Below, piece by piece: positions 24,434 through 63,107 of a stretch of DNA of 64,000 bases. Position 1 is the first letter of the stretch; every line of letters begins with the position of its first letter. Origin of the DNA: Geosiphon pyriformis uo1 (taxonomy: Eukaryota > Fungi > Glomeromycota). A program made the position numbers and the translations under genes. The notes below the pieces were generated by a model. The model did not search any database, was not told where the DNA came from, and saw nothing but the letters and a program-made list of their open reading frames with translations. The stretch lies in the NCBI GenBank assembly GCA_016748015.1, contig JAAOMT010000067.1, positions 124,001 through 188,000 on the forward strand, written 5' to 3'.

Positions 24434-24531
24434 NNNNNNNNNNNNNNNNNNNNNNNNNNNNNNNNNNNNNNNNNNNNNNNNNNNNNNNNNNNNNNNNNNN
24501 NNNNNNNNNNNNNNNNNNNNNNNNNNNNNNN
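24434..24531. other. Assembly gap (N run)
   Basis: 98 N bases. Confidence 0.99.
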
Positions 24532-25598
24532 AAAAAAAAAAAAAAAAGAAAAAAAAATAAATTTAGTATTATCAATTATCATAATTAAGAACAATTGGTC
24601 CAAATTATTAAAGTTCTAAAGTTATTTATGCTAATAGTATCTGGTCTAAAACAAAAATAAAAAAACAATTAATTTAATTTTAACAACACAAATTTGAAGA
24701 TTATATATAAATAAATTAAAAAATATTTTTATTTAATAATAAATATAAAAATATAAAAAAAAGATAAAAATAATTTGTTAAGTTTTTAAAATTAAGATAT
24801 GTTTTTAAGGAAATAGGTTTTTATTTTTTGTCTGTTTTTTTTTATCTGTTTTTTTTATTTGTTAAAGCTACTTATTTTTATACATATTTTCTAGTTTTAC
24901 AAAATTGTTTTTAATTATTTGTTATTATTAGTTATTTGTTATTGTTTTTGTTATTGTTTTGTTTTTTTATATTATTCTGTATTATTTTATATTATTATAT
25001 TTTTTTTATGTTATTATATTTTAATCATATTTTAATCATGTTTTTTTAATAGCTTTTGGATTGTTTTTTATTTGAATTATAATATTTTTTCTTTTTAAAA
25101 TTAAGCTTCTGTAAAATTATATGTATTTATAACAATTGTTCTTTTGGTATAATGTTTAATTGTAGTGTTAAGTATTGCTTTTTATAGGTTTTTAAACTGT
25201 ATATTTGTTATTTATTTTATGTTGTTAACTGTAATAGTCTTTAGTAAATTGTTTAATAGTATGATTAAACAATACTTAAATATTAAATACAGTTAATATA
25301 TTGCTTTATAATATAGTATTAAGTTGTTTCTTTTAATAAATTTTTCTATTTGTTTGAGAGCTTTTCTGTTAAATATTTGTTTATTAGTATTTAAGTATGA
25401 TGTTTGTAGATCTAGTCTTTTACCAATTTTAAAAAACCAGTATACTAATAGAAGTCTTTCTTTTTACTCTTTAAAAATTTCTAATATCTACTTTTCTGTT
25501 ATTGGTTTTATAATTAGCTTACTTAAAACTTTTTTAATTTTATCAAATATGTACAATCATATATATTTTTTTTTAATTGATCATAAAAATAAAAATGC
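24532..25598 (-). mobile_element. Relic of LTR element D (ORF3 C-terminal part, PPT and partial 3' LTR)
   Basis: Minus strand reads YWFFKIGKRL...KQIFNRKALKQIEKFIKRNNL...KAIY*LY...ITNIQFKNL, homologous to ORF3 of A. Followed by gaagcttaat + purine tract + tattata (decayed LTR start at 25084). Confidence 0.7.
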
Positions 25599-27929: not shown

Positions 27930-28623
27930 ATATTGAGCTCTGTTAAGATCTCTTAATTTCTCTAATTCTCCAGATTGAATTATATCTTAAACTTCTTTTT
28001 CGAGAATTACTTGTGTTATTTGATTTGTAATTTCTCAAATTGGACATTGGTCATTTTATTTATTTGATTAGTAATAACTATATTCATTTCTGAATTGAGT
28101 AGTATTTCTGGTTGGTTTTGAAATCCAGCTTGTAATTAATATATTGCTTATGCTTATGTGGTTAGATGTTTTTTCCCACAAATTGTTTAAATTGTTGTAG
28201 TATTTTTGTATCAAATAATTGCTTTGTTTTATCCATATATAAGTTCTGAATGTTCAGGTGTTGTTCTAAGTAAAAATAACAAAAGTTTCTTGGAAATTGT
28301 TGTATCCACTAGTTCCAAGTTTTTTTGGTCAATTTTTGGTATAGTATAACTTTTGTTTATATTTTTATTGCCATTTTTACTTTTAAAATTATCTTGTTAA
28401 TAATGTTTTCTGGTTTTTTTTTGTACTTTATATTGGAATTTCTTCTTTGTATCTTTATAATAAATGATTTATTGGTTAATTGTAATTTCCATATATTGTT
28501 GTTGAATCAGTTGGAAAAGTTGTTGTGCCAGTATGTAGATATTGTCAGTAATTTTTATTTTTCTGATATCTTTTGTTATGTGCTGATTCTTTATATAGAG
28601 TTTTGATGTCTTAATTTGACATG
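27930..28623 (-). pseudogene. Accessory ORF3 of A'
   Basis: Nucleotide alignment to 32674-33370; relic FCYFYLEQHL...KQLFDTKILQQFKQFV. Confidence 0.75.
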
Positions 28624-31782: not shown

Positions 31783-32660
31783 TGTTACAGATGACAATTT
31801 CTGGTGTTGAATTAAATACGAACCCATAACTTGGTGCTCAAAGCTATTCTTATTGTCGATGATCTGAAGGTTTGGTATCTGAAGGTTTTGTATCTGAAGG
31901 ATTTGGTTGAGTTTTTTGTATAATGAACAGAGATTCAATGGTGATAGTTTTTTCTGTAGCTTTCTAAAACTGCAGTTTTGTCAATTTTTTTCTCAACTTG
32001 ATGGCTGGTATTCCTTCTGGTAAGCTATCCTCAATTGAGTGTTTTATTCTTATTTCTGGGTCTTTTACCAGTCACATTTATCCTGACATCAGTGTCCCAT
32101 GCATTAATCCTCAATAGAGTTAGTAAACAACAATAAAATCAAAACAAGAAAATAAAGAAAAGAAAATAAAATAAAGAAAGAAAAGAAATAAGCCAAGGCG
32201 ATTTGCAAGTTAGTATTCCATCAATAGCCATGATCAAGAACTATTGTTCTAGTGTGGTTAAGTATCAATTACTATCAACATAAAGTGTTGATAGTGGAAA
32301 TGGGTTTGAAATAACAAATAGTTATTTATTAGATGATTGTAATTTGGAGAATTGCTTAAATTAAATCTAAAACTAAGAGGTTTGTTTTTTCAGCTTTTAA
32401 TCCTGCTGCTATATATACATAATTGAGATTCCTCAATTCCTCAATTCTTCATGACAAGAATCCTGGAATTCCTGGAATCTTGCGATTCCTTTGAGAAAAA
32501 TCCTGAAATTCTGGAATCCTGCAATTTCTTATCGGAGAATCCTAAAATTCCTGGAATCCTGCAATTCCTGAGAGGAATCCTGGAATTCCATATTTACTAT
32601 GTCTACTTCTGATTGGCTAATAATCATGCTAATATATTTCCTATATTTCTATGAGTAACA
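31783..32660 (-). repeat. 3' LTR of A
   Basis: tgttac...gtaaca; direct repeat of the split LTR at 41082/51852. Confidence 0.97.
32409..32618 (-). promoter_or_regulatory. U3 promoter of A LTR: CCAAT box, GGA(A)TTCC(A) tandem array, TATA box
   Basis: Minus strand agccaatc (32611-32618), array of ggaatcct/ggaattcc units (32424-32590), and tatatata (32410-32417). Function is inferred from position. Confidence 0.6.
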
Positions 32661-32675
32661 TTATTCCTTCCTTTT
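32661..32675 (-). other. Polypurine tract of A
   Basis: aaaaggaaggaataa abutting the 3' LTR. Confidence 0.9.
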
Positions 32676-33370
32676 AATATTCAGCTCTATCAAAATCCAA
32701 CTTGTTTAATTCTCCCTCTTGAAGTATTTTCTGGATTTCATTTTTGAGAATTACTTGTGTTATTTGGGTCTGTAATTCTTTAAATTGAGCATTGGTAATT
32801 TTTCCCAATTGATTACTGGTAACCATATCTATTGCTTTGTTGAGTAATATTTCTGGTCTATCCTGAAATGTTGTGTGTATTCGGTATATAGCTCAGGCCT
32901 GTGTGGATAAGTTGTTCTTTTCCACAAAATGTTCTAATTATTGTAGTATTCTTTTGTTGAATAATTGCTTTGTTTTATCCATATATAGATTCTGAATATT
33001 TACATGTTGTCCCAAGTAAAAATAACAATAGTTTTGTGGAAATTGTTGTATCTATCAATTCCAAGTTTCTTTAGTCAACTCTTGATATAGTGATTCTTTT
33101 GTCAACTCTCTTATTGCTAAATTTTACTTTCGCAATGATTTTGTCCACAGTATTTTCAGTTTTCTTCTGTGTTCTGGATTGCAATGTCTTTCTAGTATCT
33201 TGATATTGAATGGTTTGTTGATTGATTGTAATCTCTATTTCCTGGTGTTGGATCAATTGAAAGAGTTGTTGTGCTAGTGAGTGAATGTTGTCTGTAATTT
33301 CCATTTTTCTGATATTTCCTGTCATGTTTACCATGTCTTTATATATTCTTTTGATGGATCAATTTGACAT
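32674..33370 (-). pseudogene. Accessory ORF3 of A (unknown function)
   Basis: ORF 33071-33334 plus a frameshifted continuation YCYFYLGQHV...AIYRIHTTF...QLGKITNAQFKEL, homologous to ORF3 of B, C and D. Confidence 0.8.
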
Positions 33371-41834: not shown

Positions 41835-42820
41835 TGTTACCAGAGGTTTTTGGTCTTTTCTTAGCTCTTGTATGTTTGTTGTAATGCTGTTAATTCACGA
41901 TTATGGAAAGTGTTTGAACCTCCGATAACTGAATTTATCTTCAAATTATCTTCTATAATTTGAACTGCTGGGCTTATAAATAGAATGGCCAATTCTGTGC
42001 CAGTTACTTTGTATAGTTACATTGTAGTAAACGTCAACTCTTTCCCAGAAATTGTTCATCTGAAAGCTCACTAAAAATATGTAGTTACTTTGCTGTGAAA
42101 GTCAACTCTTTTACAGAAATTCTTGTCTGTAGGATACTCAAATGATTTATAATAAGAACAGAAAGAAAATAAAGGAAATGTAAAAAAAAAAGTAAAACTG
42201 ATAATTTATAGGAGCTGTTTCGGATCCAGGCCTGGAAGTGCTTTAACAGTCTACTGAAATTGGTAGCTAATCAATTTCAAACTGTTAGTAGAAATTGGTT
42301 AATTTCAAGGGAAATAATTTAAGAATTTGGCTTTTCGAATTTATTTGATATTTATTTTGTTTTTGTGTGTAAAGAATGATTCTAATTATTAAATCTGAAG
42401 TAAGATACATTTTCTTGAAGAGAAAAGCTCTTCTTTTATACAACTTGTCATAACACTATTTTATGAACTTGAACTTTGCTCTTTTCTACAATTTTGCTGA
42501 ACTAAAGATATATTTTGGCAAACTACAAGTTATTTCTGCGAACTATTAGATATTTCAGTGAACTATCAATTATTTCGGCAAATTTCTACAAATTTCGGCA
42601 AACTTTTGAATGTTACATATTTCAGGGTATTGCATGATTGATCATTACACTTAGGTTACATTTGTGTTATGTACAAATTGGGTTATTAATTAAATGATAA
42701 TTTCGGACATTTTGCCAATGTAATAAGTGATAATTTGAAATAATAATATATGCTAATTAATGATAAAATTTATAAGGGTAATTTTATGCTAAATAATATT
42801 TCTAATTTTGTCTGGTAACA
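41835..42820 (-). repeat. 3' LTR of B
   Basis: tgttaccaga...tctggtaaca; direct repeat of 50739-51723. ~21-bp ttcggcgaact-like array at 42460-42610 and TATAAAA at 42434-42440 (minus strand). Confidence 0.97.
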
Positions 42821-43508
42821 TAACCTCCTCCTCAAAACTGAGCTCCATCGAAGTCCAAGTACTGTCTGTAATTTCCAGATAATAATCCAAAATTATTGAA
42901 GAAATTTGGTCTGAAAATTGTTGAAATTTCAGTTCTGTGAGCTTTCCAATGTATTGAATCTTCAAAGGCTGTAAAATTGGGTTTTGTAGGACGTTTTCAC
43001 AGGTATGAAATAGGTTATAAAGTCTAAGAGCAGCTCTTAGTTTATAATGACTGTTTGTAGGTCCAGCTGTTGTCTTGAATTCATTGTAGAGTTGTTTCCG
43101 AATAGCTTTTTTTGTGAGGTTTGCTGCTGTAAGCTCCTGTTTTTGTTCATGAAGTGTTTTTCCAATGTAGAAATATCTATATATTGGAGTATAGTTGTAG
43201 TTTTTTTCATTAAGACACAGTTGAAGTTTTTGTTGAATAGTAGCATTCAGTGGAATACTAATAGGAATGAGTATTAAGTTTTCTCTTAAAGCAAGCTTTA
43301 GAAGTTTTGGCAGGTGAATTCCAGAATAACTTCTTGTGTTCTTCTTATACAGGTGATATTTTTGTGCATTTGGGGCTAAATTTGTAACTACTTCTGTTTG
43401 GGTATAATTAATGTGGTTTCCAGTAACAGTAATAGATAATTTGGGTATTGTTTTTAAAGCTAACATTAGTTTTTGGAATAATTATTGAATGTTTTGAGAA
43501 ATAGACAT
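42789..43508 (-). pseudogene. Accessory ORF3 of B (unknown function)
   Basis: 225-aa open frame 42789-43466 plus an in-frame upstream ATG at 43508 (MSISQNIQ*LFQKL). Motifs YRYFYIGK, AALRLYNLF, YIGKLTELKFQQF. Reads through the PPT into the LTR. Confidence 0.82.
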
Positions 43509-43630
43509 TATAAAAGATTTGAAAATAAAAGAAAATTATTTTTGGTGTATGGGTTTTTATGTTATTTTTGTTTTGTTTTTGTGAAATTGTTTCTAAATTA
43601 TAATGATATAACTATAATGATAAATTTAAA

Positions 43631-45016
43631 TTAAGTGTTTAAGTTGGGAGGTTGTTCAATGACAACTATTGGTTCTAATTTTTGGAGAATATTTTTGGAA
43701 TTGATTAAAGAAAAATGTGTACCAATTTGTGAAATTAATGGTTCAAGATTGTTTCTGGAATTATAGTGTTTCAAACAATCTCTATGTGCAACTTTTGCTA
43801 GAATTTTGTCATCAAGTCTTAGCTTGTATGATCCATTGCCTAGGACTTCATGGATAAAGAATAGTCTATCCCATTTATTTTCAAATTTTCCACTCCATTG
43901 TTTTTCAGCTTTAGTTCTATGTAAGAGAACTTTGTTTTCAATTTTAAATCCATTGGTAACTGGAGGCAATTTGTCATCATGCCATTCTTTTTGTTGAGCT
44001 TGGAAGTGTTTAATATGGGTGGCTGCTATTCATTATTTTCTTTCCAATGTGCTAAGCAGAGTGTAGGCTCTTTGTTGTAGTGTTTCCTGGAAATTGTTTT
44101 TATCAATTGGTTGTATTGGGTATGTTTCCATGATGAAACTAATTGGTAATGTTGCTGTCCTTCCATAAGTTAAATCAAATGGTATGTGTTTTGTGGTATT
44201 TTGTTTTAGTGTTCTATATGCCAGTAATACTGATAAAATAAAGAGATCCCATTCTTGCTTAAAATTGGTTGAGACTTTGGCTAATGATTCACACAATGTT
44301 CTGTTGAAACGTTCTACAAGTCTATTTGTTTATGGATGGTAGGGTGAAGATAATAGTCTCTTGACATTAAATTGTCCACAAATTTTCTAGATTAAATTGT
44401 TCACAAAATGTGTTCCTTAATCAGATAAAAGTTCTATTGGGCATCCATGTCTACAAATGATGTCTTCATAGATGAAGTTTGTTACTGATTTTGCATCTGT
44501 TCATTGAATGGCTCTGGCTTCAGGCCATTTGGTGAGATAGTACACAGCTATTGCAATATAAAGGTTTCCTTGGTTTGTGATGGGGAGTGGTCCGACTAAA
44601 TTGATATCAACTCGGTCAAACAGCTGTTCAACTTTGATTGGGTTTAAAAGTTCTATAGAGTGAGTTTCTTCTCTTCTTTGACAACTATTACAAGACTTAA
44701 CATATTCATGAATGTCTTTTCTCATTTGAGGCCAAAAATAATATGCTAGTGTTCTCTGGGTGGTGCTGTCTTTTCCTAGGTGTGCTGATGAAAGGTCTGA
44801 ATGCATGTTATATAAAATGGTTTCTTTTTCATGTTCTTGTATTAATCTGAGTGGATTTTTTAGGTTTCTGAAGTTTCAATAATAAATAATGTTGTTGTGT
44901 AAGAAATATTGTTTGGCTTGTTGTTGTAACCAATGTTTTTCATTTGGGAACCAATCTGTTGGGATTGTTAATGTCTCCAGATATTGTTTAAAATTGTTGT
45001 AGTTTTCGGGGTTCAT
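43631..45016 (-). pseudogene. Integrase of B (own ATG)
   Basis: Starts MNPENYNNFKQYL at 45016. ORFs 44501-44806 (H-H...CNSC), 44033-44296 and 43631-43969 (WSGKFENKW...LGNGSYKL). Confidence 0.92.
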
Positions 45017-45062
45017 TGTTTGTTGTTTTGTTGTTAATTCAAATGGGTGTTGTTTTTATGTT

Positions 45063-48000
45063 CTAATCTTGCCTTATTCTTGAGAAACAATCAACATTGG
45101 TGTGGAGTTTTCCTGGTTTGTGATGTACAATGAATTGGTAGTTGGCTAAAAATCTTGTCCATCAGGTTTGTTTGACATTCAGCTGAGTGTTTTTGTTTTG
45201 AAGCCATTTGAATCCAATATTATCAGTAATAATATCGAATTCTTTGGGTTAGAGGTAAAGGTTGAAGTGATGTAGGGCCCAGATTACTGCTGCAGTTTTT
45301 AATTCTGTTGCAGGGTAGTTTTTTTCAGCTGGCTTCAATGTTTTGCTAGCATAAGCAATTACTCACTCATTTCCATTGTTATCTAATTGTGATAGGATGG
45401 CACCAAAGACAGTATAAGAGACATCTGTTGTTAACCAGAATCGGTTGCTGAAATCTGGGTAAGCAAGAATTGGAGCTGTGGTTAGTTTTTCTTTAAGGAT
45501 TTCAAATGTATTTTGGTGTTCAGCAGTCCATTTGTATTTGACATTTTTGGTGATAAGCTGGTTGAGAGATTTTGCGATTTCTGAGAATCCTTTGATAAAC
45601 TTCTGATAGTAGGAGGCTAACCCTATGAATCCTCTTAATTCTGTAGTGTTTTGAAGAGTTTTGAAGTTTTTGACAGCACTGATTTTTCCAGGGTCTGGTT
45701 TGATTCCATTTTTACTAACAATGTGACCAAGAAAGACCAAGCTTGTTTTTCCAAAGTAGCATTTTTCGATGTTGAGTTTCAGTTCTGCTTTTTGTAATTG
45801 TTGAAATACTTCTTGCAGGTGTTTTAAGTGTAATTCAAATGATAGAGAATAAACATCAGTATCATTAAGATAAACGACTACTAACTTCCAAAGGAGTCCT
45901 TTGTACACAATATCCATTAATCTCTGAAATGTTGCTGGTGCATTGCATAATCCAAAAGGCATTACATTGAATTTGTAGTTTTCTCCTTGGGTTGTGAAGG
46001 CTGTTTTGGAATGATCTTTGGAATTCATGGCAACTTGCCAGTATCTGCTTTCTAGATCTAGTGTTGAAAAGTATTTTGATTTTCCAAGAGCATCTAACAT
46101 GTCATCAATTCGGGAAAGAAGGTAAGCATCTTCCATGGTGATGCTGTTGAGTTGTCAATAATTAACACAAAATTGTATCTTTCTATTTTTCTTCTTAACT
46201 AGGATCACAGACAAGGCCCATAGACTCATTGATGGTTGAATAAGCCCATTGTTAAGCATCCATTGTACTTCTTTTCAGATAAATTGGTGGCTTTTTGGAG
46301 CAACTCGGTAGGCTTGTTGTCACCTTGGTTTGGCATCTCCTGTATAGATTTGGTGTTAAACCAAATCAGTTCTTCCTAAGTCATTGTTGTTTTCGACAAA
46401 GATATTGGCAAATTCTGCAATTAGCTCTTTAAGCTGGTTTTGTTGTTGTGGTTCAAGTTGTCTCATGTTGATTCAAGATAGTTTTTCTATAACAACATGG
46501 TAGTTTTCAGAGCTGGTGTTTGGGTTGATTTTTGGTAGTAAATGTCCAATAATTTCAGAGAAATTGGAGATTGTTTGGGGTAATTCTTGTTGAAAGATAT
46601 TACTGTGAATAACTCCAATTTCTAAGTTATTTAATAAAACTATGAGGAAATTGTTGGGATTGTAAAAAGTAACTCGGATTTTCTTTGTTCCTTCTGGAAT
46701 ATAAATGTTTGGGATCGAGATATTATATTCCAAGCAGATTTGTTTGTTGGACTCAAAAATTTGTTGTGTGGTTGTTGGCTTTTCACAAGTGTAAATTTCA
46801 GTGTGTTTTCCAAAGAGTGAAATGGTAATTGGTTGTGGAAGTTGTAAAATCTAGTAAGATTCTTTCTGTTTATTGAGAGCTATGTTTACTAAAACTGTGA
46901 ATTGTCCAGTTGAACCAAAACCTTGGGTTCTTCTTTCACTTTTTCCCAATAGTTCTCTTTAATTGACTAATTGTAAACCCAAAATGTTGATTAAAAGTAA
47001 ATAAATGGCTTGAGCAATTTTCTCAGCATGTTTAATCTTAAATGGCTTGTCAGTTTCATTTTGGAGTATTATTGTTATGTCACCAGTATATCCAGCATCG
47101 ATTATTCCTCTTTTGACATTGATTTTTTTGCTTGCCAGAGAGGACCAGGAGGCAATTTGAACCATTGCTCCTGGTGGGATTTCAAGAGCAATTTTGAGGT
47201 TGATTTTTGTGAGAGATTTGGGTTTGAGAATGAGAGTATCCTTGTCTGGATATCTTAGGTCATATCCAGCATTAATTTTATGTGCTTTTTCAGGTTTTAT
47301 TCCTTGTTCGTTGTTGTTGAAGTATTTGAGTTGTAAGGCAGACTGGTTTTTGATGAAATAGATGAGTGTTGTTTCAATTTTTTCTGTTGCTTCAGGTTTT
47401 CCAAATTCAATTTTGTTCTCATTGTTTTTACTGGGCAGAAGAATGCTAAGAGCATAGCATTTAGAACACCACTGTTAATCACAAGGCATAATGCATTTTT
47501 CACATAGCCTAATGTTCATTTGCTTTAATCATTGAATTTGAGCTTTTTGGGTTGGATAGGTGTGACTTGCAATTTGGTGGTAAACTTCTACTTCATCTTC
47601 ATAATTAAATCTAGCTAATTCCATAGTGTATTCAATGTATTCTGCTTCCTTCATTTGACAGACATCTTCTTTGGTAGCTCTATTAATTAATGCCATTGCT
47701 AGATTAAAAATCATCTTAGCATCATGGGGGTAGTGATAAAGTTTGTTGAGAGCACTGTTGTATGCTGCATTAAAGGGTGTTTCTCTTTTTACTTTTTCTG
47801 AAATTGATAAAGCATATTGGTAGGTCTGATTGCAGACTCTTCCTCTCATTGTTACATCAATCCAATTGCATTCTTCTGGTAGCATATCTCCACAAGTCAA
47901 ACAAGGAGTGTTATCCTATTTTCTGCTTCTTTTTATTAGATGGCCCCATTGTTCTCTGTGGCAAGTCTTGCAGTAATAACAAGTATGATTTTCATATTCT

Positions 48001-50694
48001 TCTTCAGGTGAAATGCAGGCTTCCATTGAGAAGAGTTTCTTTGGCAGTCCTTGCATTTGAGTGGAATGTAGGGGCATTGTTTTTGTGGTTTTGGTTTTGA
48101 ATAGGGGACATTCCATCCAGTTGTCACTGGTTCTTTTGTTTCAAGAGAATCATTTGTTGAAAAGTACTGTTGTTTAGTTTCATCGGCCCAATTGGAGGTT
48201 GATCCAAGTGCCATAAATGTTTCAATGATGGGCTTTTCTTCTTCTGGTTTGAATTCAAAAGCCAGGGCTTTTTTGGAGCATTTGTTGAATGTACCACAAA
48301 TGACAGGTACCTAGGCATGTTGTCCTTGGTAGGAGATTGTTAACTCTTGTGTCTTCCAATTCAAATTAGCATTGGCTTTTTGAAGCCAATTATTTCCGAC
48401 AAGAGCTTGGTACTGGGGCACATCCATTACAAGAACTTTGACTGGAATGGTGATTCCATTAAGAGTGAATAGAAAATTGTCAATTTCTTTTACTGGAGTC
48501 TTTTTCATGCTATCGGCAGTAATAATTACTGTTTGAGCTTGTCGGTCAACATTTCTCTTTAACTGTTGCATTAACTGGTAGGTGATGATACTTCCGGCAG
48601 ATCCACTGTTTAGGATTAAGTGAATTGCTTTTTCTTCGACTTTTGCTTTAGTGTATATAGCAGTGATTGCTTTTTGTTTATTGGTGGCCACATTGCTAAG
48701 CAGGAATGGTGACTTATTTGCTTCAAACTCAAAAGAAAATATGTCTGAAAGGTTGGCATTTTTAGCAATTCTGGCTGGTGAAATTGTGGTAGGAGTATAG
48801 GAAGGGTTTTGTTGTCATGCTGCAGCTCTATCTTCCGAGAGTACAGTATGGTGAAAATCCTGTTCTTCAGGTATTGTAAGATAGCTAAGTTGAGTATGAT
48901 AATGGGTGGGTTTTGGCTAAGCTGGATTTCGGGGAACTAATTGGTTGTTTGAATTGATTCTATTGTTGTTTACTTGGTATCGATTTTGTGGTGTAAATTG
49001 ATTTTGTGGGATTAATTTTCGAGCAGGCACTTGATAATGTTGTGTGGGTGGTTGTTGGTATTGCTGTTGAATTGGCTGTAGGCAGGCTGATAATAGTTAC
49101 TTTGATATTGGGGTCTTGGTAGATAGTAAGCTGGTGATGGTGGTTGATAATAAGATTGTTGTGGTGGAGAATAACGTTGATTACTCCTATTTTGTTGGTT
49201 TCGTTATAGCTTTCTGCAATCTTTTTTCCAGTGGCCAGGAATTTCACAGTAATGGCAACTCTGAGGCTGGTTATTAGAGGGTGATGTGAAGTTGTTTTGA
49301 TTCCGTCTTTGGGGTGGTTGATATCTTTGAGGTTGCTGTTGTTGTTGGTTGGTGAAATAGTTTTCGACTTTTTTTGCAAGTTGGTCAATTTTTTCTTCAG
49401 CTGCTGAGCTGGTTTCTCCAATGATTAAGTTCATGAGTTTTGTACAATTGGCTTCTTTCATGGCCATTTTATATCTCTTTGCATGCTGAATGGCAGAGTT
49501 TAAATCTTCTGGGGCATGTGAGTGAATCTTTTTAATCAGTTTATCCTTTAAACCAGCAATAAATTGATCCAAAATTTGAGCATCGGAATAATAATTATTA
49601 GTTTCAAGTTGGCAAATTTGTCTAAGAAGTTTTTTGAATTTCCCAATATAAGTCATAACAGATTCGGAGGGTTCTTGTTTGATATTGTGAAAACAATTTC
49701 GAAGAGTGATTGAGGTGTTGTTATCAGTGAATTGTTCTAAGAAGGCAGTTTTGAAAGCTGTCCAGTCATTAAAAGAGGTGGTCAAGTTTTCAAACCATTC
49801 ACCTGCTGTTCCTTTGAGAAAGTAGAGAATTGTTCTTAACATTTTGGCAGCATTCCATCTATTTGCATCTCCAGCTTTAGTAACTTGGTTGAGCCATTTT
49901 TGAGGACTGGTCTCAATGTCTTCTCTATTGAATTTAGGGATTTTTGCAATGTATGCTGTCATTTTATCTTCTTTGTTTTCACTGTCTATTGATTCTTCTT
50001 TAGATATTTCAGAGTCGTTTTCTTTGTTCGCTGCTGTCTCATAGTGTTCACTTTGATTTTCAGCTAGAAAGTCAAGAAGATTGGAACTAGTTTGAAGGAG
50101 TTCTTGTTGTCTGGTGGGACTTCTGGGTAATGTAAAATCTTCTAGTCTTGTAAATCAATTTAAGAGTGAATTAAGTATTTGTGCTTGTGCAAGTAAAGCT
50201 GAAAAAGGTGTGATAGTAAGTGGAAGTTTTGAACTGGTTCCTTGTTCAGGTGTTTGTAAGTGTTTGGCAGTTGTTTTTGGTAGTATTGGAGTATTTGAGG
50301 TGGTTTTTGAGTATTGCTTCAATTTTTGTTTGTCTTTGTTGCTTGTTTCTGTCTCTGATTCAAAATCAATGGAGTATTGAGATTGCACTGGATATATTTC
50401 TTCACAGTACTTGATAATGTTAAAATTTAGTTCTTGAAAGTAAGTGACAAGTGTTTCACTGTTAAGGTCTTTAGTTTCTAACTGTGAATAGTGTACTAAA
50501 TTATTGTAAAGATTGCTTCTAACTTCTGAGATATTGTAATTTCTAAAAAAATAATTGTTGATATGGTTTTCAATGTATTGGTATACTGATTTCTTGACAA
50601 CTTCAATTCCGTCTGGAATGTTGAATCTTTGCTTGCAGTGGGTGTAAATTAATTGGTAATACTCTAGAGTTGTTGCGTCTGGTGTGGTTGCCAC
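45063..50694 (-). pseudogene. Gag-Pol of B (capsid, CCHC, protease, Cys-rich module, dUTPase, RT, RNase H)
   Basis: ORF 49204-49962 capsid plus CHYCEIPGHWKKDC; 48311-48691 LILNSGSAG protease; 46959-47165 dUTPase; 45363-46136 RT ([18 protein letters not shown]). Confidence 0.93.
46905..47290 (-). pseudogene. dut: dUTPase domain within pol of B
   Basis: Motifs NAGYDL, SWSSL, GIIDAGYTGDI, KIAQAI, QGFGSTG. Confidence 0.9.
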
Positions 50695-50738
50695 TTTGAA
50701 GTTGTTTTGCTGTGTTGTTTCTGTGAAAGAGCACCAAA

Positions 50739-51723
50739 TGTTACTAGAGGTTTTTGGTCTCTTCTTAGCTCTTGTATGTTTGTGTAATGCTGTTAATTCA
50801 CGATTATGAGAAGTGTTTGAACCTCCGATAACTGAATTTATTTTCAAATTATCTCCTATAATTTGAACTGCTGGGCTTATAAATGGAATGGCCAATTCTG
50901 TGCCAGTTACTTTATATAGTTACATTGTAGTAAATGTCAACTCTTTTCCAGGAATTGCTTGTCTGAAAGCTCACTAAAAATGTGTAGTTATTTTGCTGTA
51001 AAAGTCAACTCTTCTACAGGAATTCTTGTCTGTAGGATACCCAAATGATTTATAATAAGAACAGAAAAAGAATAAAGAAAATATAAAAGAAAAAGTAAAA
51101 CTGATAATTTATGAAAGTTGTTTCAGATCCAGGCCTGGAAGTGCTTTAACAGTCTACTGAAATTGGTAGCTAATCAATTTCAAACTGTTAGTAGGAATTG
51201 GTTAATTTCAAGGGAAATAATTTAAGAATTTGGCTTTTCAAATTTATTTGATATTTATTTTGTTTTTGTGTGTAAAGAATGATTCTAATTATTAAATCTG
51301 AAGTAAGATACATTTTTTCGAAGAGAAAAGCTCTTCTTTTATACAACTTGTTATAACACTATTTTATGAACTTGAACTTTGCTCTTTTCTACAATTTTGC
51401 TGAACTAAAGATATATTTCAGCGAACTACAAGTTATTTCTGCAAACTATTAGATATTTCAGTGAACTATCAATTATTTTGGCAAATTTCTACAAATTTTG
51501 GTGAACTTTTGAATGTTACATATTTCAGGGTATTGTATGATTGATCATTGCACTTAGGTTACATTTGTGTTATGTACAAATTGGGTTATTAATTAAATGA
51601 TAATTTCGGACATTTTGCCAATGTAATAAGTGATAATTTGAAACAATAATATATGTTAATTAATGATAAGATTTATAAGGGTAATTTCATGCTAAACAAT
51701 ATCTCTAATTTTGTCTGGTAACA
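50739..51723 (-). repeat. 5' LTR of B
   Basis: Direct repeat of 41835-42820; adjacent PBS tggtgctctttcacag. Confidence 0.97.
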
Positions 51724-55310: not shown

Positions 55311-56048
55311 TGTTATGGTTGAAACCCATAGTTTTTATTAGTTATCACATGTACCAGCCACTAATGTTATATAATTAGCCACCCTATTTTTAGATAGTGA
55401 TTGTTGACTTGATTAATGACCTGACTGTTGACCTGATTATTAATCTGATCATTGACCTGATCATTGATCTGATCATTGACCTGATCATTGATCTGATTAT
55501 TAACCTGATCATTGATCTGGTTGTTGACCACTTTAGATAGCTATATAAGTGATGATTCCCTTAGCTGTAGAAAGACATGATCAAAATAATGAAATAAAAC
55601 AACATCAATTACTTTCTCTCATATCGCTTATTTTCCTTTTCTTACCTTCAAGTATCTACTTGTTGGCATTCACATACCTTATCTTTTTCTGTTCTTGATT
55701 TGTATTTGTTAGAATTAGCCTGAGAAGCAATTGGCTTGCTCTTGTAATTCATTGAATAAAGAAACGATTGAAAAGCACAACAATATCTGTTATTGATTTT
55801 AAGAATTGCTGAGTTGAAGCATAGAATAATAGTAACAGTGTTATTTTGTTGACAATCACGGACTATTCCTCTATCTTCAGATTTAAAAAAAGATTAGCAA
55901 CTGTGATTTTTATGAGATTGATCACGCACATTGAATCCTTACTCATTCAATTCACTCCCTTATTGTAATTTTCTCTTTGTTTATTTCCATCACCATATAA
56001 TACTGTTCTCCCTTGCTATCTGTTAGCTTGTTACTCCAACCTATAACA
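55311..56048 (+). repeat. 5' LTR of C
   Basis: tgtta...taaca; 12-bp tandem array ~55400-55530; TATATAA at 55542-55548. Confidence 0.97.
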
Positions 56049-56054
56049 TAAAAG

Positions 56055-56070
56055 TGGTGCTCCCTGTGAG
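56055..56070 (+). other. Primer-binding site of C
   Basis: tggtgctccctgtgag, 6 nt after the LTR end. Confidence 0.85.
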
Positions 56071-56100
56071 ATTGTCAAAATTCACTTATTCCCTTATTGT

Positions 56101-57639
56101 ATGGGTGATTACTTATATCTGCCACAGCAATCAGAAGAACACTTTGCAGCACACAATAGAAACGACCTAGATTTCATTGAACTTAATCCTCTGCTCTCCT
56201 GCTTGATCTGCTTCCCCCTTGAAGAACAATCTAGTAGACAATTCCAAGACTTTTGGAACTGGTTCCTAAACAAGCATTCAACTGAAACCTACACAGCTTA
56301 TACAACCTATTACTTTGACCAAGCTTATTTTGAAAACAACTTTGAAGAAAGAAACAACAGTATCAATCAGCTCTTATATTCTGTAACCTTTGAACAACAG
56401 CCCCCTGATTTCGAATATCTGAATCATCAAATCCACATTTGGATTGCTGCCCATCAAGCAACTGAAACTCCCTTTGAAACAGAAGAAGAAAGCTACCAAA
56501 CTGCCCCTGTTTTTGATCTTTTATCAAGTCAATCAGACTCGTCTACACAAACAGTTATCCCTGAACCAATGGCTAATGACCCTATGCAAGCAAACATTCT
56601 GGCCACCCTCCAAGGTATACAAACTGCTCTAGGAAGAAGAAACAATACTCCACTACCACTATTTAGAGGTAATACACAAGATCCAATTGAATGGTTGGAT
56701 GATTTTGAGAGAGCTGCCACAGCCAACCAATATGATAAAGAATACAAGTTCCAAATCATTGGTGGCTACCTCCAAGGCTTTCCTGCTACCTGGTTCTCAC
56801 AAGAAACAGATGCCAATGCTCAATACAGAATAATCAGATGGACACCAATCAATGCTGGAGAAGAAAATACCTCTTTCACTACCCAATTTGAGGCCAAGTT
56901 CAGAACCCCAATATTAATATCCAAATGGTGCATGGAATTGGAAAGAAAAACCCAAGGCCCTGGAGAAGTAGTGACTAAATATGTCAAGGCTATTAGAAAG
57001 CTAATCAAACATGTAGACTCTGAGAGAAATTGGATGGAAGAGCAGAAAATTCACTCCTTCACAAAAAGATTGAGAACTGATCTATCATATGTTCTTTGGC
57101 CCCTCCTGGCCCTGAAAAATAATCCCACCATGGATATGGCCATTGAATTAGCACAAAAAATTGAAGATAACCAAAGGATGCACTTGGGATCCACACTACC
57201 AGTTTTTGCTCCTGCTCCTGTCATGGCTCCTGCTTTTCAAATGGCTGCTACTTCTTTTGCCACTCACACTCAAGATTCAAATGAACAGTTAATAGACAGA
57301 CTTACAGCAAATCTAGCCCAGTTATTAGAACTCTTAACCCAAGCAGTCAGAGAAAATCAACAACCACAAAGACCCAGATTTGAACTATGCTTCAATCAAT
57401 CCCAGCAACCATCTTATCAAAGACAACAAAATTATGGCCCATCTGTATGCTATCACTGTGGATTAACTGGACACTTTTCAAGAGATTGCAACAATTCTCC
57501 ACTGTCTCCACCAGTTCCCAGAAACAATAATGCCCAGAACAACAGACCCAACAACAACAATGTTTCCAACCAAAGACCCAATCATGCTAACATCAATTTC
57601 TTTGGAGAAGATCCCCTAGTTGAAGCCACTATTTATTAG
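56101..57639 (+). CDS. gag: Gag of C (retrotransposon capsid + CCHC zinc knuckle), 512 aa open
   Basis: FRGNTQDPIEWLDDFERAA capsid signature, QGPGEVVTKY MHR-like segment, CYHCGLTGHFSRDC knuckle. The ancestral stop is possibly 57652-57654. Confidence 0.88.
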   Translation: MGDYLYLPQQSEEHFAAHNRNDLDFIELNPLLSCLICFPLEEQSSRQFQDFWNWFLNKHSTETYTAYTTYYFDQAYFENNFEERNNSINQLLYSVTFEQQPPDFEYLNHQIHIWIAAHQATETPFETEEESYQTAPVFDLLSSQSDSSTQTVIPEPMANDPMQANILATLQGIQTALGRRNNTPLPLFRGNTQDPIEWLDDFERAATANQYDKEYKFQIIGGYLQGFPATWFSQETDANAQYRIIRWTPINAGEENTSFTTQFEAKFRTPILISKWCMELERKTQGPGEVVTKYVKAIRKLIKHVDSERNWMEEQKIHSFTKRLRTDLSYVLWPLLALKNNPTMDMAIELAQKIEDNQRMHLGSTLPVFAPAPVMAPAFQMAATSFATHTQDSNEQLIDRLTANLAQLLELLTQAVRENQQPQRPRFELCFNQSQQPSYQRQQNYGPSVCYHCGLTGHFSRDCNNSPLSPPVPRNNNAQNNRPNNNNVSNQRPNHANINFFGEDPLVEATIY

Positions 57640-57641
57640 CC

Positions 57642-57689
57642 TTTAAACTGGTAGGCGCATCTCCAAAGGGTAAGAGTGCAAGCCAACCA
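57642..57689 (+). promoter_or_regulatory. Putative -1 programmed ribosomal frameshift signal
   Basis: T_TTA_AAC in gag phase, 5-nt spacer, hairpin GGC-GCA-TCT-CC/AAA/GG..AGA.TGC..GCC. Downstream pol is in the -1 frame. Confidence 0.7.
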
Positions 57690-60367
57690 GAAGAAAACCC
57701 CTTTTACACTTTTAACTTAACTGATGATGACCATGACATGGATGAATTAGCAATCAACCTCTCTGAATCCACAAGAAAGAAGAAGAAAGCCAAAGTTGAT
57801 TTCATTATAGATCCCAATAAAGCTTCTACATCAACTGCTGACAACAATGAGCCCCCCAAAACCAAAGTTTTCAAAAACCCTCCAAAGTTGGAACCCCCAG
57901 AAATAATACAAAAATCTGGCCCCTATTCTGTTGTCAAAAACCTCATGGAAACCCCAGCACATATAACCTTTGACCAATTGATGACCCATCCATAATTCAG
58001 AAAAGATCTTTGCAAATCTCTGATTCCAAAGAAAAAGACACCCAAAACCAACAAACGCTCTCACCAAGCTGGACTTGCTGACAATAGCAATGTCACTCTT
58101 CTAATTTGCAAAGCCCAAGTAGCTGGCTACTTTATCAATTTAATCCTAGACAGTGGATCATCTGTTAGTGTTATTGCTAAACACTTTCTTGAAGCAATTG
58201 GCAGAAAAATTGATGAACCATCTACACGACCAATGACCAATGTGCATAGTAATAAAAATAAAGGGCTTGGCATAGCCAAAGCTATTCCTGTCCACATCAA
58301 TGGCATCAGCATTGAAACTGATATGGAAGTATCTGAAGTGAAAGAATACACCATTATTGTTGGCAATAAATGACTCAAGAAAGCAAAAGCTTTGCTTGAT
58401 TATGAACTCTGTGAACTAACCATCAGATGTGGTAAGAAACCCATTGTGGTTAAATGTTGTCATTGGACAACTCCCCCAGTACCCAAGCAGAGCCCAGAAG
58501 AAAATAAATCAGACAAATCTGATGATGAAAAAAGTGAGAAAGAAGAAAAACAAGAAGAACAAAAAAAAACTGCTGAACTCGCCTATACCATCTTTACCAG
58601 CAATGGCAAACCACTAGATAATGTCAAGGCAGATAAAGAAGGAATCATTGTCAATGGCAAGCTGATCTGCTGGCCTTATTATGACATGCTCAGAAGAACC
58701 TTTGACAGAAAGCCAGGCAAGAAAACCAAATACAGTTATTAGTAGCATGGTGCTTGTGCCCAGTGCTGGTGCGACAAACCATTGTATTCTCCTAGTGATG
58801 AATGCATGTCCTGCCTGATCTATTACAAAGATTGGGAACCAATCAGCTTGATATCCTGAGAAATAATAAAAGAAGTCCAAAAGTCCCTTGAAAATGAACC
58901 ACCTGAAATCCAATCACTGGTTGTAGAACAAAGAGAACTCTCTCCAGAAGAAAAAAAAATAGACATTGAAAACCTGCTGGCTAGAAACAGCCCAGTTATC
59001 TCAAAAGAAGGTGAACCTTCTGAACGTACACATGTGATACAACACACCATCATTACCAGAGAAACTTGCCTCATCTATTTGAAGTCCTATCAATCCAACC
59101 GGCACAATGACGAGTTTATCAAAAAGGAAATAACCCAAATGAAAAACCTTGAATTTATATAGGAAACCAAGAATGAATGGGCATTCCCAGTTGTAGTGGT
59201 ATCCAAAAAAAGAGGAACCTTACACTTTTGTGTTGACTATTGCCAATTAAATGCCATTACTGAAAGAGACATGTACCCATTTCCCAAGATTGATGCAATG
59301 CTAGACCAATTCCATGGTGCTGCTTTCTTCTCAACTATTGACTTAACTGCTGAATTCTGGCAAGTAGAAATGGATCCAAAAAGTAAAAAGAAAACTGCCT
59401 TCATCACTAAGTATGGCACCTACGAATTTACAGTCATGTCTTTGGTCTCACAAATGCTCCTCTCATCTTTCAATGCTTAATGGACAAAGTATTTGAATCA
59501 GTAAAAGAAAACTTTGTTCTAGTCTACTTGGACAACATAATGGTATACTCAAAAACCTGGGATGAACACCTTGAATATTTGCAAAAGATTTTTGACCTCC
59601 TTAGAAATGCTGGCCTCAAGATCAATCCAATCAAATCATTCTTTGGACGTCAATCCACCCAGTTCCTTGGCCATCTTATTACAAAAGATGGAATCTTCCC
59701 TGATCCAGCCAAAATTGAAAAAGTTCAAAACATTAGACAACCAATAAATGTTCATGAACTATGCTCTTTTCTTAGTTTGGCCTCTTATTATTGCAAGTTT
59801 GTTAAGAATTTCTCCAAAATCACCACTCCTCTCAATCAGCTACTCAGAAAAAACATCAATTATTACTGGGGCACTTATCAACAAAAAGCATTTGAAATTC
59901 TGAAAAAAAAACTGGTTACAGAACTCATTCTTATGCAACCTAATCTGAATCAATCTTTTATTCTCCATATTGATGCATCTGGCTATGGACTTGGTGCTGT
60001 TCTTTTTCAGAAAGACAAAGATGGCAGGGAACATGCCGTAGCATATGTCAGTAGAACTCTCACACCAGCAGAAAGAAACTACTCAGTTACTGAGCAAGAA
60101 TGCTTAGCAGTAGTTTGGGCTACCAGCTACTGGGACAAATATCTTAAGGGTGTGAAATTTTTGGTGGTAACAGATTACCAAGCTTTGGTTTGGCTACACA
60201 ACAAAAGAAACCTGGAACATAAATGAATAACTCACTGGATACTCCACTTGGATGAATTCAACTATAACATTCAATACCACAAAGAAGCTAATCATCAAAA
60301 TGCTGACACTTTCTCCAGACTTTACCATCCAGTGATAGTAAAACCCTTTCAAACCAAACCAACTTAA
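57642..60367 (+). pseudogene. Pol of C (protease, small Cys cluster, RT, RNase H; no dUTPase)
   Basis: LILDSGSS at ~58140; FCVDY..LN, FWQV, YLDN, IDASGYGLGAVL, ERNYSVTEQECLAVVWA. Confidence 0.93.
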
Positions 60368-60400
60368 TTATTTGTAACTCCTCTACAAACAAACATAATA

Positions 60401-61714
60401 ATAGACTTGAACAACTACTCTGCCTTAATGGAATTTTTGGGTAAAGAACAATACCTGCCAGACTATACTTGACAGCAAAGAGAACATTTGTGTAAACAAT
60501 TAAATTTCTATTTGATTTGCCAGAACCAGTTATATAAAAGAAATAAAAAAGATTTTGACCACCCCCAGAGAGTCATCAGATTTAAAGAAAAAAAAATTGT
60601 GATCTACAATATGTACACTGATCCATTAGCTGGACACTTTGGAAAAACAAAAACAATCCAGAAAACTTTAGCTCACTATTACTGGCCTACCTTGGGAAAA
60701 GACATTGCTGAATACATTAAAACTTGTGATACCTGCCAAAAAAGAGGAAAACCCAATCGCAAGGAAGATATCCATCTGATCTCTGTTGGTCAATCATTTA
60801 ACAGAATTGGTATAGATGTTGTTAGACCTTTAACAGTAACTTCTAATGGCAACAGATACATTATCACAGCTACCAACTATCTTACAAAGTGGGTAGAAGC
60901 AAGAGCCATCCCAGATCAAACAACAGTCTCAATTGCCAATTTCATTTATGAAGATATTATCTGTCGCCATGGCTGCCCCAAAAAACTTTTATCTGATAGA
61001 GGAAGAGCTTTTTTTAGTACACTGGTTAAAGAACTTTGCAGAAAAATGGGAATATGTCATAAACTCTTTTCCTCTTATTACCCCCAAACAAATGGCCTAG
61101 TGGAACATTTCAATAGAACACTATGTGAAACCCTAGCCAAAACCAGTGAAGAAACCAACCTATGGGACAAAGTATTGCCTTCAGCCTTGTTCGCCTACAG
61201 AACTGTGAATCATGACATAACAAGTTATGAACCCTTTTATCTATTCTATGGACGAATGGCAACTCTACCAATAGAAACGGATATAGAAACAATACCTTTT
61301 GAAGAAATAACAATAGGAAATTACAAGGACATTCTGCAAAGAAGACTTGGTACCATTCTTGACTCATTGGTAGAAGCACGGATAATTGCCTTTGAAAAGA
61401 TAAAACAGTTCCAAGAGAAGCTCAAAAAGAAAAAGACTTATAAAACACTTTCTTTAAGTGTTGGTGACTTAGTTTTGAAATACTGTTTAGACAGAGACAA
61501 TGTCTATGGTAATAAATTCTCTAGCCACTGGAAAGGACTTTTTATAGTCAACAAAGTTTTGAACAATGGTTCATATATCCTACAAGATTAATATGGAACA
61601 ATATTCAGTAATTACCCTGTTCATGGCATGCAACTCAAGAAATATCACAAACGACCTGATTGGTTACCTGTTGTGATAATACCAACCCAAATAATCAGCA
61701 AAAATCAGATATAA
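60401..61714 (+). pseudogene. Integrase of C
   Basis: ORF 60488-61591: GHFG..YYWP..CDTC, IGID, SDRG, QTNGLVE (DDE). Continues past one stop to WLPVVII...QI*. Confidence 0.93.
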
Positions 61715-61755: not shown

Positions 61756-62412
61756 ATGAACAATTATTTTCTGGATCAAAACATTCAAAACACTTTCTAT
61801 ACTCTCCATGAATACTGGATCAAAAATTATCCAAATGCTATTCTGACTATTGGAAAACAAACCATCATAACTGATAATGGTAAAACACATACTGTTATTA
61901 GACCAAAGAAAACCACTACCAGAAGAGAAAGAATTGGTAGCAAAATAGATAAGTATTTACTGAAAAGCATAACAGCAGCAATACTTACATCTTCCATGAC
62001 AATTGGAAAAACGATTAAGGAAATCTTGCCCATAGACAAAAACTTGTTATATGGAAGGCAACTAGAACTCTATGGTTATTTTGGTGAAATCATAGAAGAA
62101 ATGAAGCTCATGAAGAAAACAACTTCAGAGATACAAGTGAAAATTTTGGGCATTATACGTTTAAATGTCCCAAGAGTTTTGACCATTGCAAAAAGAGCCA
62201 AAACTCTTATACAAAGATTTGGTCTCTTGGATACAAAGCTTATTTTGCCTCAAGTACTATATACTTTATCCACAAAAAACTTCAACAAACTAGTTAGTTT
62301 TGAGTTAGACAAAACCCTTCACGTAGACTATCCCATAAATAGCTTGATTTCACCGGAGCTTAATCTCTTTGGAGAAGATGATGTTACAGTTGAAACCCAT
62401 AGTTTTTATTAG
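61756..62412 (+). CDS. Accessory ORF3 of C (unknown function, open)
   Basis: Open frame from ATG 61756. Motifs QNIQNTF, LYGYFGE, IAKRAKTL, LYTLSTKNFNKL align weakly with ORF3 of A and B. Ends inside the 3' LTR. Confidence 0.72.
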   Translation: MNNYFLDQNIQNTFYTLHEYWIKNYPNAILTIGKQTIITDNGKTHTVIRPKKTTTRRERIGSKIDKYLLKSITAAILTSSMTIGKTIKEILPIDKNLLYGRQLELYGYFGEIIEEMKLMKKTTSEIQVKILGIIRLNVPRVLTIAKRAKTLIQRFGLLDTKLILPQVLYTLSTKNFNKLVSFELDKTLHVDYPINSLISPELNLFGEDDVTVETHSFY

Positions 62413-63107
62413 TTATTACATGTACTAGCCACTGATGTCATATAATTAGCCACCCTATTTTTAGATAGTAATCATTGACCTGATCAATGATCTGACCATT
62501 GACCTGATCATTGACCTGATCATTGACCTGATCATTGACCTGATCATTGACCTAATCATTGACCTGATTGTTGATCTGGTTGTTGATCACTTTAGATAGC
62601 TATATAAGCGATGATTCCCTTAACTGTAGAAAGACATGATCAAAGTAACGAAATAAAACAACATCAATTACTTCCTCTCATATCGCTTATTTCTCTTTCC
62701 TTACCTTCAAGTATCTACTTGTTGGCATTCACATACCTTATCTTTTCCCCTTCTTGATTTGTATTTGTTAGAATTAGCCTGAGAAGCAATTGGCTTGCTC
62801 TTGTAATTCATTGAATAAAGAAATGATTAAAAAGCACAACAATATCTGTTATTGATTCTAAGAATCACTGAGTTGAAGCATAGAATAATAGCAGCAGTGT
62901 TATCTTGTTGACAATCATGGACTATTTCTCTACCTTCAGATTTAAGAAAAGATTAGCGACTGTAATTTTTATGAAACTGATCACACACATTGAATCCTTA
63001 CTTATTCAATTTACTCCCTTATTGTAATTCCCTCTTTGTTTATTTTCATCACCATACAATACTGTTCTTCCTTGCTATCCGTTAGCTTGTTACTCCAACC
63101 TGTAACA
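62382..63107 (+). repeat. 3' LTR of C
   Basis: Direct repeat of 55311-56048, preceded by PPT tttggagaagatga. Confidence 0.97.
62470..62590 (+). repeat. 12-bp tandem array (ATTGACCTGATC)n in U3 of C
   Basis: About ten units directly upstream of TATATAA (62601-62607). Confidence 0.9.

What the first reader, a model, noticed from the sequence alone, without database searches (positions are those of the whole stretch)
42789..43508. Conserved non-env accessory gene (ORF3) in the env position of four divergent families
Seen: A (32674-33370), A', B (42789-43508), B', C (61756-62412) and D (~25100-25598) each have a ~220-240 aa ORF, or a relic of it, between IN and the 3' LTR, although their LTRs are unrelated. 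Shared motifs occur in order: NIHSLAQQL / NIQ(Q)LFQKL / NIQNTFYTL; YCYFYLGQ / YRYFYIGK / YWFFKIGK / LYGYFGE; AIYRIHTTF / AALRLYNLF / AKRAKTLIQRF; LGKITNAQFKEL / IGKLTELKFQQF / LYTLSTKNFNKL. No signal peptide, TM helix, furin site or Cys pattern is visible, so it is not an envelope protein. It looks basic and helical. Inference: an ancient retained accessory factor (transactivator of the U3 arrays, anti-silencing factor, IN partner or movement protein) that may define an undescribed complex LTR-retrotransposon clade.
Basis: partly seen in the sequence, partly recalled or inferred. Interest (0 to 1): 0.8.

Follow-up and report, generated by a model that had tools for sequence, protein, structure and literature searches.

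The report
Fungal retrotransposon's unknown third gene
Several jumping-gene families in this fungal DNA carry a real, conserved extra gene where retroviruses carry their envelope gene; its protein is predicted to be soluble and mostly helical, matched no protein family we searched, and most likely helps each element keep its own promoter switched on, which is untested.

Summary
The window is a nest of Ty3/Gypsy elements, and every named relative is from the fungus Geosiphon pyriformis. Families A, B and C carry a sense, ATG-started ORF of about 210-240 aa between integrase and the 3' LTR; D survives as a cut relic. A, B and D are clearly homologous (A-B hhalign 92.8%, E 4e-7). C fails local tests and is linked only by a global profile test (z about 5.7; controls at most 1.2). 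The family has at least six lineages in Geosiphon and two intact environmental relatives, one shown in the same RT-RH-IN-ORF3-PPT-LTR layout. Selection is purifying but weaker than on RT (transversion ratio 0.39, p 0.03, against 0.12). AlphaFold gives a confident soluble helical model (pLDDT 85.5) with no TM helix and no significant Pfam, PDB or BFVD match. It is not env. My best guess (0.4) is a nuclear DNA-binding factor for the family-specific U3 repeat arrays, acting as a transactivator or anti-silencing factor. Binding, expression and localisation are untested. Extra ORFs in this slot are a known kind; this protein family appears undescribed.

The parts
42789..43508 (-). ORF3 of element B, 239 codons, one premature stop at codon 9; runs through the PPT and 32 nt into the 3' LTR
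41835..42820 (-). 3' LTR of B (TGTTA...TAACA), 94.7% identical to the 5' LTR
42521..42576 (-). 20-bp tandem array in U3 of B, upstream of a TATA-like site near 42440
43631..50154 (-). gag-pol of B (gag, protease, dUTPase, RT, RNase H, integrase ending in an SH3-like domain; no chromodomain hit), broken by stops and shifts; IN stop lies about 120 nt before the ORF3 ATG
50739..51723 (-). 5' LTR of B, followed by PBS TGGTGCTC at 50736; B sits inside the U3 array of A's 5' LTR with a 4-bp target duplication
32674..33334 (-). ORF3 of element A (about 210-220 codons; one frameshift near 33120, 4 stops); ends just before the PPT
31783..32660 (-). 3' LTR of A with a 39-40-bp array (32452-32589, GGAATTCC-type units) upstream of TATATATAG
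27930..28573 (-). ORF3 relic of A' (older A-type element that holds A, B and C)
15595..16267 (-). ORF3 relic of B' (strongly AT-decayed)
25100..25544 (-). 3' two thirds of a D-family ORF3, cut at about 25599 by an A-type LTR on the + strand
   Evidence: 45-59% to D-family proteins, E down to 6e-38
61756..62412 (+). ORF3 of element C, intact 218 aa; runs through the PPT and 31 nt into the 3' LTR; probable remote homolog of the others
62382..63107 (+). 3' LTR of C with a 12-bp array (62471-62588, TGACCTGATCAT) upstream of CTATATAAG
55311..61712 (+). 5' LTR (to 56048), PBS TGGTGCTCCC and gag-pol of C (no dUTPase match)

Best explanation
ORF3 is a real, separate third gene of a group of fungal Ty3/Gypsy retrotransposons, and its predicted soluble helical protein most likely binds the repeat array in its own family's LTR and would keep that promoter active against host silencing. 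Shown: own ATG after the IN stop; homology across at least eight lineages at 25-41% identity; purifying selection weaker than on pol; no membrane anchor; a different repeat array before the TATA-like box in A, B and C. Predicted: an N-terminal helix with two strands (residues 7-38), a basic flexible linker (41-53), and a six-helix core (82-220) whose conserved residues cluster in the YxYYxIG helix and in a helix-G-K-T-N-helix unit that carries the conserved R155. Inferred and untested: expression from its own or a spliced RNA, nuclear entry, DNA binding by the helix-turn-helix-like unit, recognition of the cognate array, and an activating or anti-silencing effect. On this reading ORF3 and array diverge together, which would explain why ORF3 changes faster than pol and why the LTRs are unrelated.
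For: Homology. Same layout outside Geosiphon, ORF3 intact while pol has two stops: L001. Selection: A/A' third against second codon position 71/202 against 35/202, p 7e-5; pooled transversions at 0-fold sites 48/759 against 4-fold sites 9/61, ratio 0.39, p 0.03; RT 0.12. Confident model, pLDDT 85.5. Positive net charge in the linker (7 of 7 rows that have it) and in the helix-turn-helix-like segment 121-165 (9 of 9 rows); Y102, N145 and L167 kept in 8 of 8 family groups, R155 in 7 of 8. Arrays with palindromic units in U3 upstream of TATA-like boxes. Host pressure: CpG observed/expected 0.13-0.29; LTR pairs differ by 178 transitions against 8 transversions. Precedent: VANC proteins act on short tandem motifs of their own family (PMC6719617, passages). 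Very weak leads only: three ParB-type DNA-binding domains among 50 listed rows (Z 3.2-4.1); DUF1016_N below its cut-off in 5 of 52 B proteins.
Against: No significant match to any DNA-binding fold or family. U3 arrays are common in LTRs and are usually read by host factors (own knowledge). L001's LTR shows only AT-rich degenerate repeats, not a clear array. The environmental proteins have pI 5.4-5.9 and net charge only +2 to +4 without the tail. No conserved classical NLS: 8 of 12 proteins have a K/R cluster motif, at scattered positions. The acidic tail is partly forced by the purine-rich PPT and is absent or short in A, D and H, so it is no evidence of an activation domain. B/B' alone shows no codon-position signal (p2 0.265, p3 0.261), and transversions by codon position pooled are not significant (43 against 30 of 432, p 0.14).
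Confidence: 0.4

Rival explanations
1. ORF3 is a partner of integrase or the pre-integration complex. It would bring the cDNA into nuclei or steer insertion into repeat-rich chromatin, in place of the chromodomain these elements lack.
For: IN ends after its SH3-like domain with no chromodomain hit. The elements are nested in one another and B sits in A's LTR array. ORF3 identity broadly follows IN identity.
Against: Nesting is expected where LTR elements cover 41% of the genome (PMC11952901, passages). ORF3 is far less constrained than IN.
Confidence: 0.2
2. ORF3 binds RNA. It would suppress small-RNA silencing or help export or package the unspliced genomic RNA, like Rev or a viral silencing suppressor.
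For: Small, soluble and moderately basic. A related fungus uses small RNAs against TEs (10.1101/2021.03.30.436303, passages). Fast divergence fits an arms race.
Against: No RNA-binding fold or motif matched. A general suppressor would not need a copy in every family.
Confidence: 0.2
3. ORF3 is a functional analogue of env or of a movement protein that spreads particles between nuclei or hyphae of the coenocytic host.
For: Only its position in the env slot.
Against: No TM helix, signal-like hydrophobic N-terminus, furin site or Cys pattern in 11 of 11 proteins; no match to viral structures.
Confidence: 0.07
4. ORF3 is a captured host fragment that hitchhikes without function, its 3' end kept only by the PPT and LTR start.
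For: Selection is weak and one of two pairs shows none. An unnamed Mucoromycota protein cluster looks alike by language-model features (0.94, below the recognition threshold), which hints at a host-like origin.
Against: Collinear full-length protein homology at 25-37% identity with start and end kept, a confident fold, and an intact copy in another organism's element cannot survive neutral decay at a depth where RT has fallen to 49-58% identity.
Confidence: 0.04

Closest known systems
Sense additional ORFs between pol and the 3' LTR (aORF-3S, 'env-like') of plant Ty3/Gypsy elements such as Athila and Bagy2 (PMC7264820, main text read)
   Same: Same slot and orientation, kept in many copies, function unresolved.
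   Different: Those are called env-like for their TM domains; this protein has none. No sequence link was found.
Non-envelope ORF3s of bdelloid rotifer LTR elements (PMC5408684, abstract only)
   Same: dUTPase-bearing LTR lineages with a third ORF that is not env.
   Different: Theirs are recognisable enzymes (GDSL esterase, DEDDy exonuclease); this one matches no enzyme or Pfam family.
'add. ORF' of unknown function and dUTPase in fungal Gypsy elements (PMC2864245, passages); antisense ORF of Boty (cited in PMC7264820)
   Same: Fungal Gypsy elements with an unexplained extra ORF; dUTPase between PR and RT.
   Different: That survey concerns chromodomain-bearing elements. I could not see its figure or supplements, so identity with its ORF is untested.
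VANC anti-silencing proteins of Arabidopsis VANDAL DNA transposons (PMC6719617 and PMC13547354, passages)
   Same: Proposed working principle: an accessory protein acting on short tandem motifs of its own family; accessory TE proteins are less constrained than core ones.
   Different: DNA transposon, MAIN-related fold, function shown by experiment. Here no homology was seen and the function is untested.
Foamy virus Tas/Bel1 and other retroviral 3' accessory genes that run into U3 (recalled, no call)
   Same: 3' accessory gene next to or overlapping the LTR; LTR transactivation is the model.
   Different: No sequence or fold match; those viruses also have env.
ParB/Spo0J/KorB helix-turn-helix DNA-binding domain (1vz0, 1r71, 6s6h)
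   Same: Partial helical overlay: Z 4.1, rmsd 5.2, 87 residues; Z 3.5, 4.5, 92; Z 3.2, 3.1, 59.
   Different: The scores lie within the noise for helical bundles; no sequence support.

Membership tests
Ty3/Gypsy (Metaviridae) LTR retrotransposon | gag, PR, RT, RNase H, IN in the order RT-RH-IN | tested here: met
   Pfam hits in order in B and C; A's IN by similarity; L001
Ty3/Gypsy (Metaviridae) LTR retrotransposon | Paired LTRs with TG...CA, PBS, PPT, short target duplication | tested here: met
Chromovirus | Chromodomain at the end of integrase | tested here: not met
   IN ends 20-45 residues after the SH3-like domain in A, B, C and L001; no chromodomain hit in the IN-end ORFs of A, B and C
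Sense additional ORF (aORF-3S / ORF3) of LTR retrotransposons | Separate sense ORF between pol and the 3' LTR, kept in many copies | tested here: met
   72 of 120 listed B and 35 of 120 listed C proteins are of full-length size
env / env-like protein | Signal peptide and TM anchor | tested here: not met
   Hydropathy peak at most 1.37 in 11 of 11 proteins; hydropathy only, no dedicated predictor was run
env / env-like protein | Furin site, Cys-rich ectodomain | tested here: not met
   0 of 11 with R-x-K/R-R; 0-2 Cys
env / env-like protein | Spliced subgenomic RNA | not testable with these tools
   No RNA run was listed; acceptor-like and TATA-like sites are inconsistent between families
ParB/KorB-type helix-turn-helix domain | Structural match of the HTH core | tested here: inconclusive
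   Z 3.2-4.1, tied with unrelated helical bundles
VANC-like family-specific anti-silencing factor | Binds a tandem motif of its own family and lowers its methylation | not testable with these tools
   Arrays exist; binding needs an experiment
One ORF3 family that includes C | Significant profile similarity of C to A, B and D | tested here: inconclusive
   Local tests negative; global test z 5.7-5.9 against B/F/G, 2.4-3.0 against all families, 0.8-1.5 against A; 17 control segments at most z 1.2

The most novel reading that the evidence does not exclude
A widespread, undescribed lineage of 'complex' fungal LTR retrotransposons encodes its own sequence-specific DNA-binding protein with a fold not yet in the PDB. 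Each family's ORF3 co-evolves with its own U3 repeat array as a private switch that overrides methylation, which would help explain how LTR elements came to fill about 41% of the Geosiphon genome.
Probability: 0.25. Interest if true: 0.8.

Novelty: new variant of a known kind. Interest (0 to 1): 0.5.

Why it matters
Extra ORFs of LTR retrotransposons are common and nearly all unexplained. This one has at least eight diverged versions, a confident predicted structure with no match, and a candidate target next to each version, so binding and specificity can be tested directly with cognate and swapped pairs. A self-encoded, family-specific LTR regulator would be a retrotransposon counterpart of VANC and of retroviral transactivators. 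It also shows that several hundred 'hypothetical proteins' annotated in G. pyriformis are copies of one transposon gene family.

Tried and rejected
No host genome is held, so no genome-wide dN/dS or ORF3-array co-phylogeny was possible. No RNA holder was listed, which is no evidence on expression. The homodimer prediction never ran because the queue was full, so there is no result on self-association. No significant hit in Pfam, PHROGs, NCBIfam, PDB sequences, PDB folds (62, 63) or BFVD (64); these blanks do not prove a new fold. The ESM Atlas gave nothing for P0001 and only weak unnamed look-alikes for P0355. IMG/VR: 0 of 229 and 0 of 251 pattern matches encoded a relative. Rejected: env; chromodomain; the acidic tail as an activation domain (it is the PPT read in frame); D as a decayed A copy (it matches its own family at 45-59% and A at 30%). 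TATA-like sites 40-126 nt before the ATG in 3 of 4 and pyrimidine tracts in 2 of 4 are what AT-rich DNA can give by chance. The ORF3 tree has long branches meeting, and I draw no order of events from it.

Full report
Setting. The window is AT-rich (GC 11-40%) and is a nest of decayed Ty3/Gypsy elements (Pfam gag, protease, dUTPase, RT, RNase H, integrase). All listed relatives of the three ORF3 queries are named Geosiphon pyriformis hypothetical proteins: 120 listed of 205 for B, 120 of 121 for C, 78 of 78 for A. The host is therefore this fungus or a very close relative (inference). LTR elements cover 41.2% of that genome (PMC11952901, passages). No whole genome was held.

Anatomy. Self-comparison and junctions give B = 41835-51723 (-), LTRs 94.7% identical, inserted in the U3 array of A's 5' LTR; A = 31783 to about 51850 (-); C = 55311-63107 (+), LTRs about 90% identical. 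A and C sit inside an older A-type element, A'. LTRs start TGTTA and end TAACA, the PBS begins TGGTGCT in A, B and C, and B and C have 4-bp target duplications. In each, IN ends shortly after an SH3-like domain, and a separate ATG follows about 30 nt (A), 40 nt (C) or 120 nt (B) later. B and C read through the PPT and 31-32 nt into the LTR; A stops just before the PPT. D is a 3' relic cut by an A-type LTR.

Is it one family? A against B: BLASTP 25% over 115 aa, E 3e-8; hhalign 92.8%, E 4e-7, 185 collinear columns. A profile of A+B found 113 representatives among 1.84 billion proteins. They sort into A, B1, B2, D, E and H, plus two intact full-length proteins, P0351 and P0355. Of 20 looked up, 18 are named G. 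pyriformis and 2 are unnamed environmental sequences from ENA and JGI. Identities between the main families are about 25-41%, B1-B2 66%. The window's D relic matches D proteins at 45-59%, E 6e-38. C is the weak point. It has no significant local match to A, B or the pooled profile (best E 0.011), and its HMM scores (0.1-8.0 bits) overlap shuffles (18.5% and 26.3% of 1000 reach the median). A global profile alignment with the PPT-coded tails removed gave z 5.7 and 5.9 against the B/F/G group (0 of 60 shuffles each), 3.8 and 3.0 against B, 2.4 and 3.0 against all families, and 1.5 and 0.8 against A; the A-B control gave z 8. Four single C proteins scored z 2.2-5.1, while 17 gag, pol and antisense-ORF segments scored at most 1.2. 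The alignment is collinear, 39 identities in 189 pairs. With the shared position, size and end, I put C's homology at about 0.8. This is a home-made test run four ways.

Outside Geosiphon. P0355 lies on contig L001 as RT-RH-IN, a 317-nt spacer, ORF3 (230 aa, intact), PPT and TGTTA-LTR, again overlapping the LTR by 32 nt; its pol has two stops. Its RT-RH is 49-58% identical to the window's elements. Over six pairs ORF3 identity (20-33%) broadly follows pol identity (43-60%), with C most distant in both; the pairs are not independent, and the lowest values are near background. The context of P0351 could not be fetched.

Selection. Changes after insertion are almost all transitions (178 against 8 transversions in three LTR pairs), so transversions mostly record the active past. 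ORF3 of A against A' differs at codon positions 1, 2, 3 by 0.23, 0.17, 0.35, like RT (0.21, 0.14, 0.35); position 3 against 2 gives p 7e-5. B against the heavily decayed B' shows no such pattern (0.36, 0.27, 0.26). Pooled transversions at 0-fold against 4-fold sites: 48/759 against 9/61, odds ratio 0.39, p 0.03; RT 23/783 against 17/86, 0.12. Transversions by codon position are not significant for ORF3 (p 0.14). So ORF3 is constrained, but clearly less than RT, as reported for accessory TE proteins in Arabidopsis (PMC13547354, passages).

Protein. With a 39-sequence diverse alignment AlphaFold gave pLDDT 85.5, pTM 0.69: helix 7-20 with two strands (24-38), a low-confidence linker (42-49), helix 54-66, and a core of helices 82-95, 100-119, 126-141, 146-160, 177-182 and 185-220, mostly above 90. 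There is no TM helix, furin site or Cys pattern. Conserved residues cluster in P-x-x-Y-x-Y-[YF]-x-[IL]-G and in [GE]-x-[TN]-N...A-x-x-R-[LI]-Y-x-x-F. The linker and the 121-165 segment are net positive. No fold search gave a significant match: best Z 4.6 of 48,161 chains, none at 5 or more; Foldseek had none at E 0.001 in PDB or BFVD. ParB, Spo0J and KorB DNA-binding domains appear at Z 3.2-4.1, which is a lead at most. Family libraries were blank above cut-off.

LTR arrays. A, B and C each have a different tandem array in U3, upstream of a TATA-like box: 39-40 bp with GGAATTCC-type units, 20 bp with AACT-n3-AGTT, and 12 bp TGACCTGATCAT. The LTRs are otherwise unrelated. L001's LTR has only AT-rich degenerate repeats. 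Such arrays are usual in LTRs and can serve host factors (own knowledge), so they fit the model without proving it.

Mechanism. Shown: a separate, conserved, selected gene with no membrane anchor. Predicted: a soluble helical fold. Inferred: a nuclear DNA-binding protein that reads its own family's array and keeps the LTR active under heavy methylation (CpG o/e 0.13-0.29; methylation and small RNAs act on TEs in a related fungus, 10.1101/2021.03.30.436303, passages). The working precedent is VANC (PMC6719617, passages). I give this 0.4, an integrase partner 0.2, an RNA-binding factor 0.2, an env or movement analogue 0.07, and no function 0.04. Nothing here tests binding, expression or oligomeric state.

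Novelty. Sense ORFs in this slot are a described kind (PMC7264820, main text; PMC5408684, abstract; PMC2864245, passages). Eight literature searches listed no description of this protein in Geosiphon elements. I read only the seven papers named, the Geosiphon genome papers did not come up, Repbase and GyDB could not be searched, and unseen figures and supplements of PMC2864245 and PMC11952901 may bear on this. Three earlier AI notes of this scan describe extra ORFs of the same kind in other genomes; sequence look-ups found no look-alikes, so they are not shown to be this family and are no support. Verdict: a real, apparently undescribed accessory-protein family of fungal Gypsy elements; new variant of a known kind; interest 0.5.

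Noticed in passing
window:1-26000 against 28000-64000: Older copies have decayed to 11-18% GC. About 65% of the C/G sites of B read T/A in B', in all four dinucleotide contexts alike, and young LTR pairs differ almost only by transitions, with CpG highest but all contexts hit. This is a strong cytosine-loss process that is not limited to CpG and lacks a CpA preference.
   Followed up: partly
window:36081-37553 (-) and 46959-47474 (-): A and B carry a dUTPase between protease and RT, preceded in A by a Cys-rich stretch (CxxC...CxxC) and an acidic low-complexity tract; C has no dUTPase match.
   Followed up: no
window:50155-50919 (-): A 254-codon open frame runs from inside B's 5' LTR across the PBS up to one stop before gag; it may be a long N-terminal extension of Gag with no Pfam hit.
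   Followed up: no
window:51724 and 41834: B inserted into the U3 repeat array of A's 5' LTR (4-bp duplication CCGA/CTGA); A sits inside its relative A', and an A-type LTR cuts D's ORF3.
   Followed up: partly
window:37921-38865 (+): A 314-codon antisense frame over A's gag-protease region, hydrophobic and Ser-rich, no Pfam hit; probably the mirror of a purine-rich coding strand.
   Followed up: partly
window: about 24420-24520: A run of N (assembly gap) just beyond the D relic hides D's possible 3' end.
   Followed up: no
protein P0355 (L001:2456-3148): Language-model features place it next to unnamed eukaryotic clusters (top: 190 aa, 98 members, mostly Mucoromycota, score 0.94, recognition below threshold); a possible wider or host-derived family that I could not fetch.
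   Followed up: no
proteins: Many annotated G. pyriformis 'hypothetical proteins' are ORF3 copies or chimeras of ORF3 with IN, gag, protease or neighbouring repeats, which inflates that genome's orphan gene count.
   Followed up: partly
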